Of a stretch of 64,000 nucleotides of DNA, positions 21,644 to 38,131 are shown piece by piece. Each line of letters opens with the position of its first letter. Position 1 is the stretch's first letter. This DNA is from Escherichia phage vB_EcoM_Lh1B: sequence record OK428535.1; one strand, given 5' to 3'. Made by a program: the position numbers and the translations under genes. The notes beneath the pieces are model-generated. The model was not told where the DNA came from and did no database searches. It saw only the letters and a program-made list of their open reading frames with translations.

Positions 21644-22441
21644 ATGTCTTTTACTTCAAAACAGAATCTGCTAAAACTCATCAACGAAGAGAATAAGATA
21701 AGCCCACCGCTTACCTTTGACGATGTTGATATCGGACTGCCGGAGGTTGTGTCAGTAGACGGTCGTGATTCGGAGGTAGTCCTTACCTCGAAGATGCGCG
21801 GTGATGAAGGTACGCAAGTGATTGTGGACTACCATCGTCGTCCATTAGAGGACTACCTTAAAGGCGATGTTGCCTTTGGAGACGAGGACGTGCAAACCAC
21901 GCACGACTTACTCGCGGCGATTAACGAGCGTTTTAATCTGTCTATCTTACCTGAGGATATCGAAGATAACCCCATTGATGGACAGACGCACACAGTCGTT
22001 GCTGTTGAAACTTCCCACGAGTGGCGAAGTCAAGCGGTCATCGAGCTGAAACCTGCTACACCTCTGGCAGAAGTAGTAACCAATACAGAGTTGAGCGGTC
22101 TTCTGTACCCGGATCACCAGGACATCCAGTTGGGTCAGGCGTATATCTATTCGCGTGACATCGATTGTAGCCACATCTCTCGTTTCCTGAGCCTCTTAGC
22201 GGTCGGTATCGAGGTAGATGACACGGCGTTGGCAATCGAACTCAACAAATGTGTTCCTGAGATTTGGGTAGCTGAAGATACCCCATCCCCGTATAACCTG
22301 CGTGGTGCCACTGTCGTATTCGACGGCGTACCTGCAGACTTGCCGGGAGCAAATACGGCGTTCGCGAAAGTCGTGTCAGTGCAACTGACCGATAAATGTA
22401 CGAACTTCCAGGGCAGCCTCAACCTACACTTTAACAACTAG
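21644..22441 (+). CDS. Paralog family A member 1; putative virion/receptor-binding protein
   Basis: First of seven tandem genes. C-terminal CTNFQGSLNLHFNN motif as in A4 and a weaker version of the shared N-terminal module. Confidence 0.7.
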   Translation: MSFTSKQNLLKLINEENKISPPLTFDDVDIGLPEVVSVDGRDSEVVLTSKMRGDEGTQVIVDYHRRPLEDYLKGDVAFGDEDVQTTHDLLAAINERFNLSILPEDIEDNPIDGQTHTVVAVETSHEWRSQAVIELKPATPLAEVVTNTELSGLLYPDHQDIQLGQAYIYSRDIDCSHISRFLSLLAVGIEVDDTALAIELNKCVPEIWVAEDTPSPYNLRGATVVFDGVPADLPGANTAFAKVVSVQLTDKCTNFQGSLNLHFNN

Positions 22442-22451
22442 GAGGGTATAG

Positions 22452-23294
22452 ATGTCTATTTACGATAAGCCCTCGAAAGAGATGTTGTTAGATGCTATTA
22501 ACCGACAGAACGGATTAACGGCCAATCCACTCACATGGGAGCAGGTTGCAACTGGCTTCCCTGAGTCTGTCCAAACGCCTGGCGCTGACCGGAATACGCG
22601 TGTGCTCTTATACGGGTTGAACGGCAAGGGCTACAAAGGCAACGTTACGCTCGAATACGACCGTATCGAAATGGAAATTCTGTTCAGGAACGTAATACCG
22701 GTAGTCGTTGCCGACCCGGTAAATAAACTCTCTGAGTTGTTGCCGTTTCTGAATGCGAAATACGGCTTGTCTTTAGTTGCCGACGATATCGTTGACCAGT
22801 CAGTAAAAGATTTGGGAGAAAGCTGGTTAATCGATGTGACTATTAAGCCTGGTTGCTTGGCCTGGCAAGGTGGTTTCCGTTTACGCTTTGCGAAGTTCTT
22901 CCCGAACTTGGCGGATGTGGTGACGGATGTTGACCTCAGCGCAATTATCGCGCCGTTCGTGGTTGCTAGTAAACCACAGGCTGAGTATGTGGCGTATGGT
23001 TACGATTGGACTGAACTGCAAAAACAGTTCACTACCGATTGGGCTTACAACCGCGCAATCACCGCGGCGGATGTTGAATTGCTTAACGAAGTGGTGCCAT
23101 TAAAGTTTGCATATGTGACGGGGGCGACTGCGCAACCTGAACAAATTGCGCTTCAAGGTGCACGATATATGGGGATAACTTCAGTCACACCGAACGATAG
23201 TTACAACCCCGATTATCAGCGTGTGGCGATTATCAAGCTAGCTGCGGACAGCAACTACGCCGGTAATCTCATCCTTCACTATCTCCCGATATAA
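22452..23294 (+). CDS. Paralog family A member 2
   Basis: N-terminal module LLDAINRQN...DRNTRVLLYGLNGKGYKGNVTLEYDRIEMEILF; GGAGGG Shine-Dalgarno. Confidence 0.75.
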   Translation: MSIYDKPSKEMLLDAINRQNGLTANPLTWEQVATGFPESVQTPGADRNTRVLLYGLNGKGYKGNVTLEYDRIEMEILFRNVIPVVVADPVNKLSELLPFLNAKYGLSLVADDIVDQSVKDLGESWLIDVTIKPGCLAWQGGFRLRFAKFFPNLADVVTDVDLSAIIAPFVVASKPQAEYVAYGYDWTELQKQFTTDWAYNRAITAADVELLNEVVPLKFAYVTGATAQPEQIALQGARYMGITSVTPNDSYNPDYQRVAIIKLAADSNYAGNLILHYLPI

Positions 23295-35948: not shown

Positions 35949-35962
35949 ACTAAGGTGTCACC

Positions 35963-38131
35963 ATGTCCTACACTCCTGATTTAGTGGCGACCNTGATTCG
36001 GTCGCTCAACCGTAAAAACGCGGTCGCCAAAGCAGTAGACCCCGCTAACGTTCGCCTGGTGTCCGTGGAGCATCGTGACGAAAAAACCCTAGACGTCACA
36101 CTGACAGGGGGTCCGGGGTATTCAAGTTACGGTCAAATTACGGCCCAAGTGACGAAGCAAAATATTGCTGATTATTTCGCTAAGGTTAAGTTGGATGCCA
36201 TTCCCACCTGTGCATCCATCCACGAGCTGTTGCCGCATTTAGACACTCTACTAGGGATTACCTTTTTAACCGACGACTTTGAAGACCTGCCTATCACTTG
36301 GACAAACAATGCTGCGCGCATCACGTTCCAGGCGAAACAGACAAGTCTTATCTGGTACGGCAGCCAAACGCTAGATGTGATAAACGGTGACGTGGATATC
36401 AACACTGTCTACACTGTTACCAATATCATTCTCACGCTAAAGGCTGCGAATAAACAGCAGTGGATTAACTTCTACTCTAATGCAGCCAAACGGATCGTGG
36501 ATCTTGATAAAGTCGATGTCAGCGCCCCGATGTCCCCGGAGGATATAGGCCAAACCTCTGCGTATAACAGCGTCGTGGCTTTGACCGCTAGACCGGGGAG
36601 CGGGATGTTTGGAACGAAGTATGTGTTCTTCTCACGTAACAAACTCGAGACATATGCAGGCAAAACCACATACGTCCCGGATGATTTCACCGGTAGCCTG
36701 CACGATGCTCTGGCCATCGAGACACTCGGCATTCGGAGCGTTTTTGATGTAAACGAAATTGCTCCTGTAGAGAACCTGGCAGGCGAGTGGCCGAGACAAG
36801 TGCAATTGGCACCCGTAGAGGGTTCGTACAAAGTCATGGGCAGCGCCACGTTGAATGTGGCACGCTATCAAGATAACGAGCAAACCCTTAACCTGAACTA
36901 CACAACTACGTCGCAAGTTTCGGACAGCTACTGGGCCACGACGTTGACCAACCATGCGGCGTGCGGGCGTTTGTTTNTTAACGTGACCGTAGANGNGGGG
37001 GNTTTNGTTTTTCGCNCCAACAACCTAAAACCGACGTTCGTTATCGACGAATTGCCGCAAATTGGCGAGGTGGTTTGGAACTTCGTTAACCGGGGAACCA
37101 TTCTTGGTCGNGGTGGTTCGGGTATGGTCTATTCTCTGCCTGCGAACACATCAGCAGACGGAGCTGACGCAATCCACATTACCGATACCTTCCGCGGCAA
37201 AGTCACCATCGAAAACTACGGCACCATCGCCGGAGGTGGGGGTGGGGGCGACTACTATGCGTTTACCACCNCCAAGNTCGGTGGAGCTGGTGGTGCGCCT
37301 CTCGGGCCAGGCGCGGCGGTACCCAGCGGCACCAATAACCGTAACGGCTTAGCTGGGTCCCGTGACAAAGGCGGTGCTACCCAGTTAGTCGTCGCACAAT
37401 TTACCGGCTACCAGAGTCGCNACTATGGCGGTCCTGGTGGCGATTGGGGCCAGCCGGGACGATATACAGCGTTCGAGCAATGGAACACCCCGGCTACCGG
37501 CTCGCCGGTCTATGTCTACGGTCGTGAAGACGGGATGTCATGGACTCGCCCTGGGATGGCAGGCGAAGCCGTCGGTGGGAATAAAAGTATCGTCAACNGG
37601 GTATCCNTCGNAACGGGGAAACCNAATTTCACCNACGAGTACCAANAGTTCCNCNNCNACCNCNCAGATTTAGATNCCAACCGATTGGCCAGTGCGGATG
37701 GGATAGATAAAGTCACCGACCCAACCAAACCTGTAGTTGTGGAGTTCTTAGGTACGATTATTTCAGGTACGCTNTTCAAAAAGCAAAACATACCCGGCGG
37801 TTTGGTGGGAACACCATACGGCGATGCTGTAGCCAACTTACCGAGCACCACATTGTTTGGTATCATGGCACACTGTGTATCGGAGTTTGATATTGTGCAC
37901 GACACTTGGCGTTACAACCGTGCGGTAATGTTCACCCTAAAACCCNCNCCTACCGGGGCGATTGGCCTCGCTGTGGAACGCAACCGGGTGAAATCGGCTA
38001 CCAGTAGTACACCGGTGGAGAGGTTCTATGTCGATCGCTTCGTGTATTACGATGCGTATCTCGGTAAAATGATGGAATGTAATCCGTATACCAAATCTGC
38101 CCCTAAACCGTGGGTGCGGCCAACGATATGA
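35963..38131 (+). CDS. Paralog family D member 2; glycine-rich putative adhesin (722 aa)
   Basis: A-type N-module, then Gly islands (AGGGGGGDYYAF, GGAGGAPLGPGAAVPSG, YGGPGGDWGQPG) with flanking aromatics, and C-terminal NPYTKSAPKPWVRPTI. The Gly islands are reminiscent of polyglycine receptor-binding tips; Ns fall inside them. Confidence 0.65.
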   Translation: MSYTPDLVATXIRSLNRKNAVAKAVDPANVRLVSVEHRDEKTLDVTLTGGPGYSSYGQITAQVTKQNIADYFAKVKLDAIPTCASIHELLPHLDTLLGITFLTDDFEDLPITWTNNAARITFQAKQTSLIWYGSQTLDVINGDVDINTVYTVTNIILTLKAANKQQWINFYSNAAKRIVDLDKVDVSAPMSPEDIGQTSAYNSVVALTARPGSGMFGTKYVFFSRNKLETYAGKTTYVPDDFTGSLHDALAIETLGIRSVFDVNEIAPVENLAGEWPRQVQLAPVEGSYKVMGSATLNVARYQDNEQTLNLNYTTTSQVSDSYWATTLTNHAACGRLFXNVTVXXGXXVFRXNNLKPTFVIDELPQIGEVVWNFVNRGTILGXGGSGMVYSLPANTSADGADAIHITDTFRGKVTIENYGTIAGGGGGGDYYAFTTXKXGGAGGAPLGPGAAVPSGTNNRNGLAGSRDKGGATQLVVAQFTGYQSRXYGGPGGDWGQPGRYTAFEQWNTPATGSPVYVYGREDGMSWTRPGMAGEAVGGNKSIVNXVSXXTGKXNFTXEYQXFXXXXXDLDXNRLASADGIDKVTDPTKPVVVEFLGTIISGTXFKKQNIPGGLVGTPYGDAVANLPSTTLFGIMAHCVSEFDIVHDTWRYNRAVMFTLKPXPTGAIGLAVERNRVKSATSSTPVERFYVDRFVYYDAYLGKMMECNPYTKSAPKPWVRPTI

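What the first reader, a model, noticed from the sequence alone, without database searches (positions are those of the whole stretch)
21644..38131. Tandem array of at least 15 modular paralogs built from shuffled domains
Fifteen consecutive same-strand genes fall into four families. Family A (7 members) has a conserved N-terminal module of about 80 aa (L-x2-I/V-N-x2-N ... D/N-R-N-T ... G-x-G-Y-x-G ... Y-x-R-L/I), a variable middle and a short conserved C-terminus (G-x-L-Y-L-H-Y/F-N). Family B carries the A-type N-module, a central PxSGPGPK..GYFG / W-x-K-F..G-R module and an NGELDGF C-terminus. Family C replaces the N-module with an FN3-like domain but keeps the central module. Family D combines the A-type N-module with an NPY-S/T-K-x-A-P-x-P-W C-terminus. 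A constant-variable-constant layout and module swapping are what one expects of a diversifying receptor-binding or surface-display repertoire; this scale is unusual for a phage.
Basis: seen in the sequence. Interest (0 to 1): 0.85.

Follow-up and report, generated by a model that had tools for sequence, protein, structure and literature searches.

The report
Known jumbo-phage virion paralog array
The 15-gene array is real, but it is the already published "paralog family B" (DUF7941) virion-protein cluster of SPN3US-like Salmonella jumbo phages; it most likely encodes self-assembling adhesive filaments, and where these sit on the virion is still disputed.

Summary
Window 21644-38131 holds 15 same-strand paralogous genes in four architectures (BLAST E down to 1e-61; module HMM E 1e-17 to 1e-77).

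The window is a Seoulvirus about 97.5% identical to Salmonella phage SPN3US. The genes are SPN3US gp138-150, gp154 and gp155. This "paralog family B" was described in 2016/2017 as possibly the largest paralog family in any phage, and is now Pfam DUF7941.

SPN3US mass spectrometry finds every member in virions and, at undiminished levels, in tailless heads. A 2026 preprint on phage Goslar shows that a DUF7941 protein forms filaments and proposes a baseplate "fibre cloud".

New here:
- The shared N-module is a ~150-aa domain with the phiKZ gp127 fold.
- The "central module" has a C-type-lectin-like fold and belongs to a large family with no Pfam model.
- The array is 7 scaffold genes with 1:1 orthologs across four genera, then B-C-C' triplet cassettes (1-4 copies between phages; this window lost one), then a gp38-adhesin-like protein.

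A host-binding role is plausible. "Diversifying repertoire" fits only the cassettes. Tail versus head location is unresolved. Novelty: already known.

The parts
21644..22441 (+). g01, family A1 (DUF7941 N-domain + linker + A-type C-domain); ortholog of SPN3US gp138
   Evidence: Pfam PF25613 7.5e-68. NTD and A-CTD HMM hits. Mapped to SPN3US.
22452..23294 (+). g02, family A2; ortholog of SPN3US gp139
   Evidence: Pfam PF25613 4.8e-71. The N-terminus MSIYDKPS matches the family, so 22452 is the likely start.
23305..24150 (+). g03, family A3; ortholog of SPN3US gp140
   Evidence: NTD 6e-39 and A-CTD 2e-29. The best hit in each of three other genera is the positional counterpart.
24172..25083 (+). 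g04, family A4; ortholog of SPN3US gp141, the most abundant array member in virions
   Evidence: Pfam 8.1e-85. AF2 pLDDT 86 with N-domain 1-156, a low-confidence linker and a C-domain 190-303. Foldseek hit to phiKZ gp127, E 1.9e-6. 2239 PSM in SPN3US virions.
25153..25992 (+). g05, family A5; ortholog of SPN3US gp142 (the ORF opens at TTG 25135; ATG at 25153 is the likely start)
26003..26890 (+). g06, family A6; ortholog of SPN3US gp143, the second most abundant array member
   Evidence: 1038 PSM.
26894..27721 (+). g07, family A7; ortholog of SPN3US gp144
   Evidence: Pfam 4e-87.
27727..27744 (+). G+C-rich hairpin between the A block and the first cassette (terminator-like)
   Evidence: Consensus scan only; function not shown.
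27769..29181 (+). g08, family B1: DUF7941 N-domain + C-type-lectin-like 'BC' domain + disordered Pro-rich tail ending NGELDGF; ortholog of SPN3US gp145
   Evidence: Pfam N-half hit only, 1.3e-31. BC HMM 2e-59. Alignment.
29193..30191 (+). g09, family C1: FN3-like domain + BC domain, no DUF7941; ortholog of SPN3US gp146
   Evidence: FN3 HMM 1e-25 and BC HMM 7e-56. No Pfam hit. PHROG 1062.
30201..31124 (+). g10, family C'1: FN3-like + BC domain; ortholog of SPN3US gp147; a mosaic allele
   Evidence: dS 0.26 against SPN3US, versus 0.003-0.066 for the other 12 measured genes.
31138..32634 (+). g11, family B2; ortholog of SPN3US gp148
32647..33636 (+). g12, family C2; ortholog of SPN3US gp149
33639..34538 (+). 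g13, family C'2; ortholog of SPN3US gp150 (the ORF opens at TTG 33603; ATG at 33639 is the likely start)
34550..34585 (+). Deletion scar: the start codon and first codons of the lost third B gene (SPN3US gp151) fused to a relic 3' end (...LHHNS*). About 3.45 kb (gp151-153) is missing relative to SPN3US.
   Evidence: The same contiguous junction occurs in phage EC001.
34585..34610 (+). Terminator-like hairpin followed by a T-run, just upstream of g14
   Evidence: conserved in SPN3US.
34629..35948 (+). g14, family D1: DUF7941 N-domain, a middle region, and a C-terminal domain shared with g15; ortholog of SPN3US gp154
   Evidence: Pfam 1.6e-26. PHROG 1037 over residues 1-286 and PHROG 6409 over 312-436. 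Dc HMM.
35963..38131 (+). g15, family D2: two tandem DUF7941 N-domains + gp38-type glycine-rich adhesin domain + shared D C-domain; ortholog of SPN3US gp155
   Evidence: Pfam PF25613 2.3e-23 and PF05268 8.9e-17. PDB 6F45_D, E 0.009. Second N-domain iE 1.5e-4.
12031..12588 (+). N-domain-only DUF7941 paralog outside the array; ortholog of SPN3US gp122, next to tail genes
   Evidence: HMM 1.2e-45. PHROG 2935. In SPN3US: 22 PSM in virions, 0 in tailless heads.
41033..41581 (+). N-domain-only DUF7941 paralog outside the array; ortholog of SPN3US gp160, a highly abundant virion protein
   Evidence: Pfam PF25613 3.6e-11. 1750 PSM in SPN3US.

Best explanation
The array encodes the DUF7941 ('paralog family B') virion proteins of an SPN3US-type chimallivirus.

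Proposed parts:
- Seven conserved A proteins (N-domain, conserved flexible linker, C-domain) act as scaffold subunits. They polymerise head-to-tail, with the linker and C-domain of one subunit docking on the N-domain of the next, to give thin flexible filaments.
- B proteins carry the same N-domain but display a C-type-lectin-like domain. They end in a disordered Pro-rich tail with a conserved ...L-x3-NGELDGF motif, which I propose acts as a docking strand.
- The two FN3 + lectin-like proteins encoded after each B gene probably join it in a three-protein tip complex. That would explain why the unit of gain and loss is a triplet.
- g15 adds a gp38-type adhesin.

Together they would form an external, multivalent adhesive filament network that captures host surface structures. 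SPN3US uses flagella as its receptor.

For SPN3US-type phages I place the network's attachment on the head or neck side, because tailless heads retain it. Separate paralogs (gp237, gp122) would be the baseplate-bound members.

Status of each step:
- Shown: paralogy, folds, virion presence, head co-purification, and filament formation by one Goslar homolog.
- Inferred: polymerisation of these particular proteins, the triplet complex, the docking role of the B tail, ligand binding, and the attachment site.
For: Identity and family:
- The window is about 97.5% identical to SPN3US, with gene-for-gene mapping.
- Pfam DUF7941 hits are well above threshold.
- The g04 model has an N-domain, a low-pLDDT linker and a C-domain, as described for Goslar gp22.
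- g04 aligns over its full length to Goslar_00033, one of the preprint's DUF7941 set.

Docking:
- Linker residues L166, L175, Y180 and P181 are (near-)invariant although predicted disordered. This is the signature of a docking motif.
- hhalign places the A linker 'LSLVVTxTKLDGL' on the B C-terminus 'KxxLxxxNGELDGF' (P 0.006).

Adhesin-type modules:
- The BC family has 1992 cluster representatives. Elsewhere it co-occurs with Laminin_G_3, Kelch and Ig-like domains.
- FN3-like domain; gp38 adhesin domain.

Proteomics (PMC10052503 Table S2):
- All SPN3US orthologs are in doubly CsCl-purified virions and in tail-tube-mutant heads at a normalised ratio of 0.89-1.67. Tail proteins fall below 0.07.
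- PSM per kDa is within about 2-fold inside each cassette, and the family sums to roughly 2000 copies per virion.

Comparative genomics and biology:
- Seven A genes are 1:1 conserved across four genera, while cassettes vary from 1 to 4 copies and diverge faster.
- Purified Goslar gp22 forms filaments.
- SPN3US uses flagella as receptor.
Against: - No filaments or head fibres have been reported on SPN3US particles in the papers read.
- The only structurally placed family member, phiKZ gp127, sits on the outer baseplate, not the head.
- The Goslar authors place the filaments on the baseplate.
- Head co-purification is equally compatible with an internal location, and SPN3US heads do contain much internal protein.
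- The AF2 monomer of g11 gave no in-cis docking of the tail, which is simply disordered.
- The linker/tail motif similarity is short and statistically weak.
- PSM-based stoichiometry is accurate only to about 2-fold. The sheath calibrator comes out at 569 copies against an expected ~264.
Confidence: 0.45

Rival explanations
1. The same adhesive DUF7941 filaments, but anchored only on the peripheral baseplate, as in the Goslar 'fibre cloud' model. Their presence in tailless-head preparations would reflect self-assembled filaments that entangle with or stick to heads.
For: - The phiKZ gp127 N-domain is modelled at the end of the gp139 band on the outer baseplate, one per star lobe.
- A gp126-gp127 heterodimer fits unexplained density there.
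- Goslar gp22 self-assembles without any virion.
- The SPN3US family members gp237 and gp122 behave as tail proteins.
Against: - Two independent tailless mutants, 64_112(am27) and 255(am107), keep all 18 array proteins.
- After step plus buoyant-density CsCl purification, their normalised levels are those of true head proteins (0.89-1.67; major capsid protein 1.39). Every bona fide tail protein drops more than 14-fold.
- Free protein filaments should not band at the density of DNA-filled heads (inference).
- The Goslar preprint does not cite or address the SPN3US data.
Confidence: 0.25
2. They are internal head proteins packaged with the DNA and ejected into the cell. This was the original tentative label ('head ejection?') for gp141 and gp160.
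For: - They co-purify with tailless, DNA-filled heads.
- Copy number is high, roughly 2000 per virion for the family.
- Bubblegram imaging shows abundant internal protein in SPN3US heads.
- They are not seen in icosahedral capsid reconstructions.
Against: - The domain content is typical of extracellular adhesins: FN3-like, C-type-lectin-like and a gp38 receptor-recognition domain.
- A homolog is visibly external in phiKZ.
- Purified Goslar gp22 makes long filaments.
[quoted passage not shown] Known abundant ejection proteins such as gp53/54 are processed.
Confidence: 0.15
3. They are capsid decoration or cement proteins, or vertex-associated accessory proteins, that stabilise the T=27 shell and have no role in host binding.
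For: - Head association.
- The seven A genes are conserved 1:1 across genera, like structural components.
- Estimated copy numbers of the minor members are about 20-85.
Against: - Cassette copy number varies from 1 to 4 between otherwise similar phages. A whole cassette is dispensable in this window and in EC001. That is unlike shell cement.
- The modules are adhesin-type.
- The linkers and tails are flexible or disordered.
Confidence: 0.08
4. One reading: a rapidly diversifying, interchangeable receptor-binding repertoire, with each paralog an alternative specificity.
For: Modular swapping of domains; cassette gain and loss; a mosaic g10 allele.
Against: - All SPN3US orthologs of these genes are present together in the same virions.
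- The A paralogs are ancient and orthologously fixed.
- dN/dS is 0.04-0.8 for the 13 measured genes.
- No near-identical template/variable DNA repeats were found in the array, and no invertible segment was seen. No reverse transcriptase appeared among the array genes or the ten downstream neighbours scanned.
Confidence: 0.05

Closest known systems
SPN3US 'paralog family B' (gp83, gp138-154, gp160/161, gp237; Thomas 2016 PMC5105663, Ali 2017 PMC5694885, Scheuch 2023 PMC10052503)
   Same: The same genes. The 13 that could be compared codon-for-codon (g02 and g15 were not) are 94-99.7% identical in amino acids to SPN3US gp138, gp140-150 and gp154. Order and strand are the same. The family was described in print as possibly the largest paralog family in a phage.
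   Different: The window lacks the third B-C-C' cassette (gp151-153) and carries a deletion scar in its place. The papers listed gp155 (g15) outside the family, but it does contain the N-domain, twice. The papers gave no fold or function.
Goslar DUF7941 proteins (gp22, gp23, gp31, gp33, gp34, gp86, gp91-93, gp161) and the proposed 'DUF7941 fibre cloud' (bioRxiv 10.64898/2026.04.21.720040)
   Same: Same Pfam family and the same N-domain / linker / C-domain architecture. g04 aligns over its full length with Goslar_00033. Some members fuse the N-domain to host-recognition-type domains. Virion copy numbers are high.
   Different: The Goslar genes are dispersed, whereas here they form one 16.5-kb array. 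Goslar's accessory domains are carbohydrate-binding, glycoside hydrolase and LRR domains. Here they are a lectin-like BC domain, FN3-only partner proteins with no DUF7941, and a gp38-like domain. The Goslar model places filaments on the baseplate, whereas SPN3US proteomics places these orthologs with the head.
phiKZ gp127 (with gp126) on the outer peripheral baseplate (PDB 9XQD; PMC13250141)
   Different: phiKZ has only two or three family members and about six copies of gp127 per virion at a fixed site. Here there are 11 N-domain genes in the array, roughly 2000 copies for the whole family, and head co-purification.
T-even gp38 adhesins (phage S16 gp38, PDB 6F45; Pfam PF05268)
   Same: g15 residues about 375-531 match the glycine-rich receptor-recognition region (62 bits against a cutoff of 25; PDB E 0.009).
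   Different: The N-terminal part of the gp38 profile is absent: the match covers profile positions 63-211 of 218. In its place g15 has two DUF7941 N-domains and an unrelated C-terminal domain shared with g14.
Multi-receptor-binding-protein branched systems (Klebsiella jumbo phage phiKp24 hyperbranched fibres; the CBA120/G7C type is cited from general knowledge) and head-borne adhesins (Hoc, phi29 head fibres, the phiCbK head filament and 7-7-1 capsid fibres are also from general knowledge; 7-7-1 is mentioned)
   Same: A functional analogy: many binding modules hung on a shared attachment module, or flexible head-associated fibres that make first contact, including with flagella.
   Different: No sequence or fold relationship to those proteins was found apart from generic FN3 and lectin folds. 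The attachment principle proposed here, linear head-to-tail polymerisation of a ~150-aa domain, is different. phiKp24 does encode one DUF7941 homolog.

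Membership tests
DUF7941 / SPN3US paralog family B | Match to Pfam PF25613 above the gathering score (27 bits) | tested here: met
   Of the ten array proteins scanned, the eight with an N-module score 83-293 bits. gp160-like ORF 41033-41581: 43.5 bits. g03, g05 and g06 were not scanned against Pfam but hit my N-domain and A-CTD HMMs at 1e-24 to 1e-41. 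The two family C proteins scanned in Pfam (g09, g10) have no DUF7941 hit, and none of the four hits my N-domain HMM. They belong to the array but not to this Pfam family.
DUF7941 / SPN3US paralog family B | N-terminal domain with the fold of phiKZ gp127 (PDB 9XQD chain 0) | tested here: met
DUF7941 / SPN3US paralog family B | Globular N-domain, flexible linker and globular C-domain, as described for Goslar gp22 | tested here: met
   AF2 of g04: pLDDT 81-96 over 1-160, 52-66 over 161-190, and about 73-92 over 191-303; pTM 0.53.
DUF7941 / SPN3US paralog family B | Encoded by a chimallivirus (phiKZ-like jumbo phage) | tested here: met
   About 97.5% nucleotide identity to SPN3US and other Seoulvirus genomes. 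All tblastn hits in the phage collection that were listed are in jumbo phages.
DUF7941 / SPN3US paralog family B | Present in purified virions | not testable with these tools
   Literature only: all SPN3US orthologs were detected, at 132-2239 summed PSM.
DUF7941 / SPN3US paralog family B | Head-to-tail self-association into filaments | not testable with these tools
   Shown only for purified Goslar gp22. No multimer prediction was available here. Indirect support: invariant residues in the disordered linker.
DUF7941 'fibre cloud' (Goslar model) | Anchored on the peripheral baseplate | not testable with these tools
   Published SPN3US proteomics argues against it for these orthologs (head/WT ratio 0.89-1.67). 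The phiKZ structure argues for it in the case of gp127.
gp38-type phage adhesin (PF05268) | Pfam match above the gathering score, with glycine-rich motifs | tested here: met
   g15: 62.1 bits against a cutoff of 25, residues 375-531. Glycine-rich runs are visible in the sequence. PDB 6F45_D, E 0.009.
gp38-type phage adhesin (PF05268) | N-terminal domain that attaches to the tip of a gp37-type long tail fibre (role stated from general knowledge) | tested here: not met
   The match covers only profile positions 63-211 of 218. The N-terminus of g15 is two DUF7941 N-domains. So g15 has a gp38-like binding domain but is not a gp38 ortholog.
C-type lectin-like domain (CTLD) superfold | Structural similarity to solved CTLDs | tested here: inconclusive
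C-type lectin-like domain (CTLD) superfold | Sequence membership (Pfam Lectin_C or related) | tested here: not met
   No Pfam hit at E <= 0.1 for the BC region of g08-g11. No PDB sequence hit with the family profile. The domain is its own family: PHROG 1062, with 1992 cluster representatives.
Fibronectin type III | Sequence or profile similarity to FN3 domains | tested here: inconclusive
   No Pfam fn3 hit at E <= 0.1. The family C profile hits the 'Fn3-like protein' 3MPC at E 0.0045. hhalign to 10Fn3/TNfn3: P 4.5e-4 over 72 columns, against 0.08 for a reversed control. No structure was predicted for a family C member.
Diversity-generating retroelement or cassette-switching receptor-binding-protein loci | Near-identical template/variable repeats, a reverse transcriptase, or an invertible segment | tested here: not met
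   The longest direct repeats in 21000-38500 are 18-44 nt at 66-89% identity, all of them conserved coding motifs. Inverted repeats were not searched. No reverse transcriptase or invertase appeared among the proteins scanned.

The most novel reading that the evidence does not exclude
The array builds a previously unvisualised, head- or neck-tethered adhesion organelle.
- A heteropolymeric filament is made from seven fixed DUF7941 scaffold subunits.
- It carries exchangeable three-protein lectin-like tips, each a B-C-C' cassette product forming a pseudo-trimer, like the trimeric lectin-type fibre tips I know from other systems (general knowledge, not tested here).
- It also carries a gp38-like adhesin.
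- B proteins plug into the polymer through a C-terminal 'ELDGF' strand that mimics the A-type linker.

Such a structure would let a flagellotropic jumbo phage capture flagella or surface glycans with its head side. Host range would be tuned by cassette gain and loss.
Probability: 0.25. Interest if true: 0.7.

Novelty: already known. Interest (0 to 1): 0.38.

Why it matters
About 7% of a 240-kb phage genome, and roughly 2000 protein copies per virion, are devoted to this family. Its function is still formally unknown ten years after its discovery.

Two lines of published evidence now conflict. SPN3US proteomics places the proteins with the head. The phiKZ structure and the Goslar model place them on the baseplate.

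Several results here turn that conflict into specific experiments:
- The variable modules have adhesin-type folds.
- The unit of gain and loss is a three-gene cassette.
- Natural 1-, 2-, 3- and 4-cassette variants exist.

If these filaments mediate first contact with the host, they matter for the host range of therapeutic and biocontrol jumbo phages. The BC domain would also deserve its own family entry.

Tried and rejected
1. Recent duplication or gene conversion. Rejected: DNA repeats between copies are at most 44 nt at 66-79% identity.
2. DGR-like or invertible diversification. Rejected: no template/variable repeats, and no reverse transcriptase or invertase among the proteins scanned.
3. 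The BC 'central module' as a diverged A-type C-domain. Rejected: hhalign probability 0.1%.
4. The 'glycosyl hydrolase' label that some GenBank records give to family C orthologs. Not supported by Pfam, NCBIfam, PDB sequence or fold searches.
5. In-cis docking of the B tail on its own N-domain as a proxy for intermolecular docking. The AF2 model leaves residues 379-498 disordered, so this was uninformative.
6. Positive selection against SPN3US. dN/dS is below 1 for all 13 genes measured (g02 and g15 gave no value), with too few substitutions for site tests.
7. PDB sequence search for the g14 domains: no hit.
8. NCBIfam: no family for any member.
9. tRNA and Rfam scans of the window: nothing.
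10. Sigma-70 promoter scan: fewer hits than in shuffled sequence, as expected for a phage that uses its own RNA polymerase.

Full report
**What is there**

Window 21644-38131 contains 15 consecutive + strand ORFs separated by 0-90 nt.

All-vs-all BLASTP links every one of them to others in the set. Examples are g08-g11 3.7e-56, g09-g12 5.8e-61, g10-g13 1.2e-55 and g01-g04 3.9e-40. HMMs built for each module give E-values of 1e-17 to 1e-77.

- The shared N-module is about 150 aa, not about 80.
- The 'central module' is a complete ~215-aa domain, called BC here.
- B, C and C' form a repeated three-gene cassette.
- g15 has two tandem N-modules plus a gp38-type adhesin domain.
- Two N-module-only paralogs lie outside the stated range, at 12031-12588 and 41033-41581.

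DNA-level repeats between copies are at most 44 nt at 66-79% identity, so the duplications are ancient. There are no tRNA genes or Rfam matches in the window. I did not test the minus-strand ORFs of 82-185 aa that lie inside the array. They are embedded in conserved + strand genes, and I take them to be non-coding.

**Where it comes from**

The 16.5-kb region is about 97.5% identical to Salmonella jumbo phage SPN3US and other Seoulvirus genomes.

Gene-for-gene mapping:

| Window | SPN3US |
|---|---|
| g01-g13 | gp138-gp150 |
| g14 | gp154 |
| g15 | gp155 |
| 12031-12588 | gp122 |
| 41033-41581 | gp160 |

The window lacks 3448 bp corresponding to gp151-153, the third cassette. The junction at about 34550-34585 keeps the start of gp151 fused to a relic 3' end '...LHHNS*'. 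The SPN3US intergenic region itself holds a 30-codon relic of a fourth B gene.

Among 33 closely related records, only EC001 and SPLA3 share the contiguous two-cassette junction. SPLA5c and JN03 matched only part of the probe. The rest match in two separate places, as SPN3US does with its extra cassette.

**What is already published**

- Thomas et al. [quoted passage not shown]
- Ali et al. 2017 named it paralog family B, with 20 members and no known function.
- Scheuch et al. 2023 repeated the head/tail split with a clean tail-tube amber mutant and double CsCl purification. gp138-155 and gp160 have head/wild-type normalised PSM ratios of 0.89-1.67 (major capsid protein 1.39), while true tail proteins fall below 0.07. 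Of the two family members outside the array, gp237 behaves as a tail protein. gp122 appears only in tailed virions, with 22 PSM against 0.
- Pfam now holds the family as DUF7941.
- A Goslar cryo-EM preprint of April 2026 reports that DUF7941 is chimallivirus-specific, with ten members in Goslar and more than 2500 copies per virion. It has an N-domain / disordered linker / C-domain layout and is predicted to oligomerise head-to-tail. Purified gp22 forms filaments. The authors propose a baseplate-anchored 'fibre cloud' for host recognition. The preprint never mentions SPN3US.
- The phiKZ structural atlas places one gp127 N-domain per star lobe on the outer baseplate.

**What I tested: family A and the N-domain**

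- Pfam PF25613 matches the A proteins scanned (g01, g02, g04, g07) over their full length, and only the N-terminal part (residues 1 to about 150-170) of B and D proteins.
- AF2 of g04 (31-sequence alignment) gives pLDDT 86, with an N-domain at 1-156, a low-confidence linker and a C-domain at 190-303.
- Linker residues L166, L175, Y180 and P181 are (near-)invariant although predicted disordered, as expected for a docking motif.
- g04 aligns over its full length with Goslar_00033, one of the preprint's DUF7941 set.

**What I tested: the other modules**

- AF2 of g11 gives a confident N-domain + BC unit (residues 1-378, pTM 0.67) and a disordered Pro-rich tail at 379-498.
- The BC domain is unrelated to the A-type C-domain (hhalign probability 0.1%).
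- A BC profile finds 1992 cluster representatives in 1.84 billion proteins. Many are ~300-aa proteins in which the BC match starts near residue 80, as in family C. Others are giant proteins with repeated BC domains next to Laminin_G_3, Kelch or Ig-like domains.
- The family C N-terminus is weakly but consistently FN3-like.
- g15 residues 375-531 match the gp38 adhesin family (62 bits against a cutoff of 25; PDB 6F45_D E 0.009).

**Comparative architecture**

| Phage | A genes | B-C-C' cassettes | D genes |
|---|---|---|---|
| This window | 7 | 2 | 2 |
| SPN3US | 7 | 3 | 2 |
| pEa_SNUABM_8 | 7 | 4 | 0 |
| Kwan | 7 | 2 | 0 |
| CR5 | 9 | 1 | 2 |

- The seven A paralogs have strict 1:1 positional orthologs: 43-84% identity, against 36% or less between paralogs.
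- Cassette 1 is orthologous in three of the four genera (B1 49-51%, C1 56-69%, C'1 46-59%). CR5's single cassette is only 31-33% identical. Later cassettes diverge more, to 33-47%.
- Against SPN3US, dN/dS is 0.04-0.8 for the 13 genes measured. g10 stands out with dS 0.26, which suggests a mosaic allele.

The 'constant scaffold plus variable binding modules' idea therefore holds at the level of genes, not within family A.

**Mechanism**

My best reading is that the A proteins polymerise head-to-tail into flexible filaments, as shown for Goslar gp22. B proteins join through their N-domain and display a lectin-like domain.

hhalign aligns the A-type linker 'LSLVVTxTKLDGL' with the conserved B C-terminus 'KxxLxxxNGELDGF' (P 0.006, short match). 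The following 'YPDGP' of the A linker aligns with the 'YPDSGPGP' that opens the BC domain. I therefore propose that the B tail ends in a relocated docking strand.

Three observations suggest that B, C and C' form one three-lectin-domain tip, an inference:
- The unit of duplication and loss is always a B-C-C' triplet.
- All three proteins carry the same domain.
- Their PSM per kDa agrees within about 2-fold inside each cassette.

Adding the gp38-like g15 gives a multivalent adhesive network. SPN3US uses flagella as receptor, so flagellar or glycan capture is a reasonable target.

**Location**

The proteomics is strong that the array proteins stay with DNA-filled tailless heads through buoyant-density purification. 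I therefore favour head- or neck-side tethering for SPN3US-type phages, with gp237 and gp122 as the baseplate-bound relatives of phiKZ gp127.

The rivals are:
- a purely baseplate-anchored cloud, with co-purification as an artefact;
- internal ejection proteins;
- inert capsid decoration.

None of these can be excluded without imaging or accessibility experiments.

**Verdict**

The finding is real and large, but it is a rediscovery of a published family.

'Diversifying repertoire' applies only to the cassettes, and a tail receptor-binding role is contradicted by existing proteomics.

Noticed in passing
window 34550-34585; L002 (SPN3US) 38168-38300: Nested deletion relics. The window has an 11-codon mini-ORF (MGxxSxLHHNS*) made of the start of the lost gp151 fused to a relic 3' end resembling family A. 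The SPN3US intergenic region holds a 30-codon relic (MGFYSSTALELLCRLIQRDNPQHAGRISWS*) of a fourth B-type gene, followed by the same 'LHHNS*' relic. The right end of the cassette block is a recurrent deletion site.
   Followed up: yes
window, whole; clusters at 1001-2000, 33751-34000, 37501-37750, 38001-38250, 62001-63000: 259 N bases are scattered as 1-3-nt runs (195 singles). They cluster in a few short stretches, only some of which are also more divergent from SPN3US. Three sit inside the deletion junction, and one of these is at a base that differs between the two SPN3US sequences joined there. This looks like ambiguous or mixed base calls rather than gaps. They put X residues into g08, g11-g13 and g15.
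   Followed up: partly
window 48350-61485 (- strand), plus 47100-48338: Three giant paralogous genes (1742, 1376 and 1237 aa) are the SPN3US gp168-170 'paralog family C'. This family is phiKZ gp131-like, baseplate/fibre-associated and tail-specific by mass spectrometry. The adjacent 412-aa coiled-coil protein shares an N-terminal stretch with one of them.
   Followed up: partly
window 12031-12588 and 41033-41581: Two N-domain-only DUF7941 paralogs lie outside the array. The gp160 ortholog is one of the most abundant virion proteins (1750 PSM) and resembles Goslar gp23 in lacking the C-domain. The gp122 ortholog sits beside tail genes and was seen only in tailed SPN3US virions.
   Followed up: partly
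window 30201-31124 (g10): Synonymous divergence from SPN3US is 0.26, against 0.003-0.066 for the other 12 measured genes, with 32 mismatches in 30751-31000. This suggests the allele was acquired by recombination from a more distant relative.
   Followed up: partly
BC domain, e.g. window 28216-28902, 29436-30188, 30444-31121: The BC domain has no Pfam or NCBIfam model, yet it matches 1992 cluster representatives (1475 at E <= 1e-10) in the 1.84-billion-protein library. Some are proteins with up to 8 tandem copies. It is a candidate for a new domain family with a C-type-lectin-like fold.
   Followed up: partly
orthologs of g09/g10/g12/g13 in GenBank MT679221 (Proteus phage 7) and OQ383623: These records annotate six genes under the array match as 'glycosyl hydrolase'. 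One of them is confirmed as a family C ortholog (P0086). No HMM, PDB sequence or fold search here supports a hydrolase. The label is probably an annotation artefact.
   Followed up: yes
window 42838-45073 (- strand): Two adjacent radical SAM genes (Pfam PF04055, 1e-14 and 1e-15) are conserved at the same position in the Erwinia and Cronobacter relatives. Their function in the phage is unknown.
   Followed up: no
window 38219-39766: Immediately downstream of the gp38-like g15 lie a GH108 + PG_binding_3 endolysin and a DUF1353 protein that RefSeq calls 'tail assembly chaperone'. The latter is near-absent from SPN3US virions (9 PSM) and could be a folding chaperone for g15.
   Followed up: no
window 27727-27744, 34585-34610, 20605-20628: G+C-rich hairpins with T-runs sit before the array, between the A block and the cassettes, and between the cassettes and the D genes. 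They may mark transcription-unit boundaries. This rests on a consensus scan only.
   Followed up: no
window 46227-46631 and 46642-47034 (- strand): Two small adjacent ORFs (134 and 130 aa) share 40% identity over their first 60 residues (E 2.6e-13). They form another small tandem paralog pair.
   Followed up: no
L004 (Erwinia phage Kwan) 8413-10311: In Kwan an annotated EPS depolymerase gene sits directly upstream of the first A gene. In that phage a known host-surface enzyme is therefore adjacent to the array.
   Followed up: no
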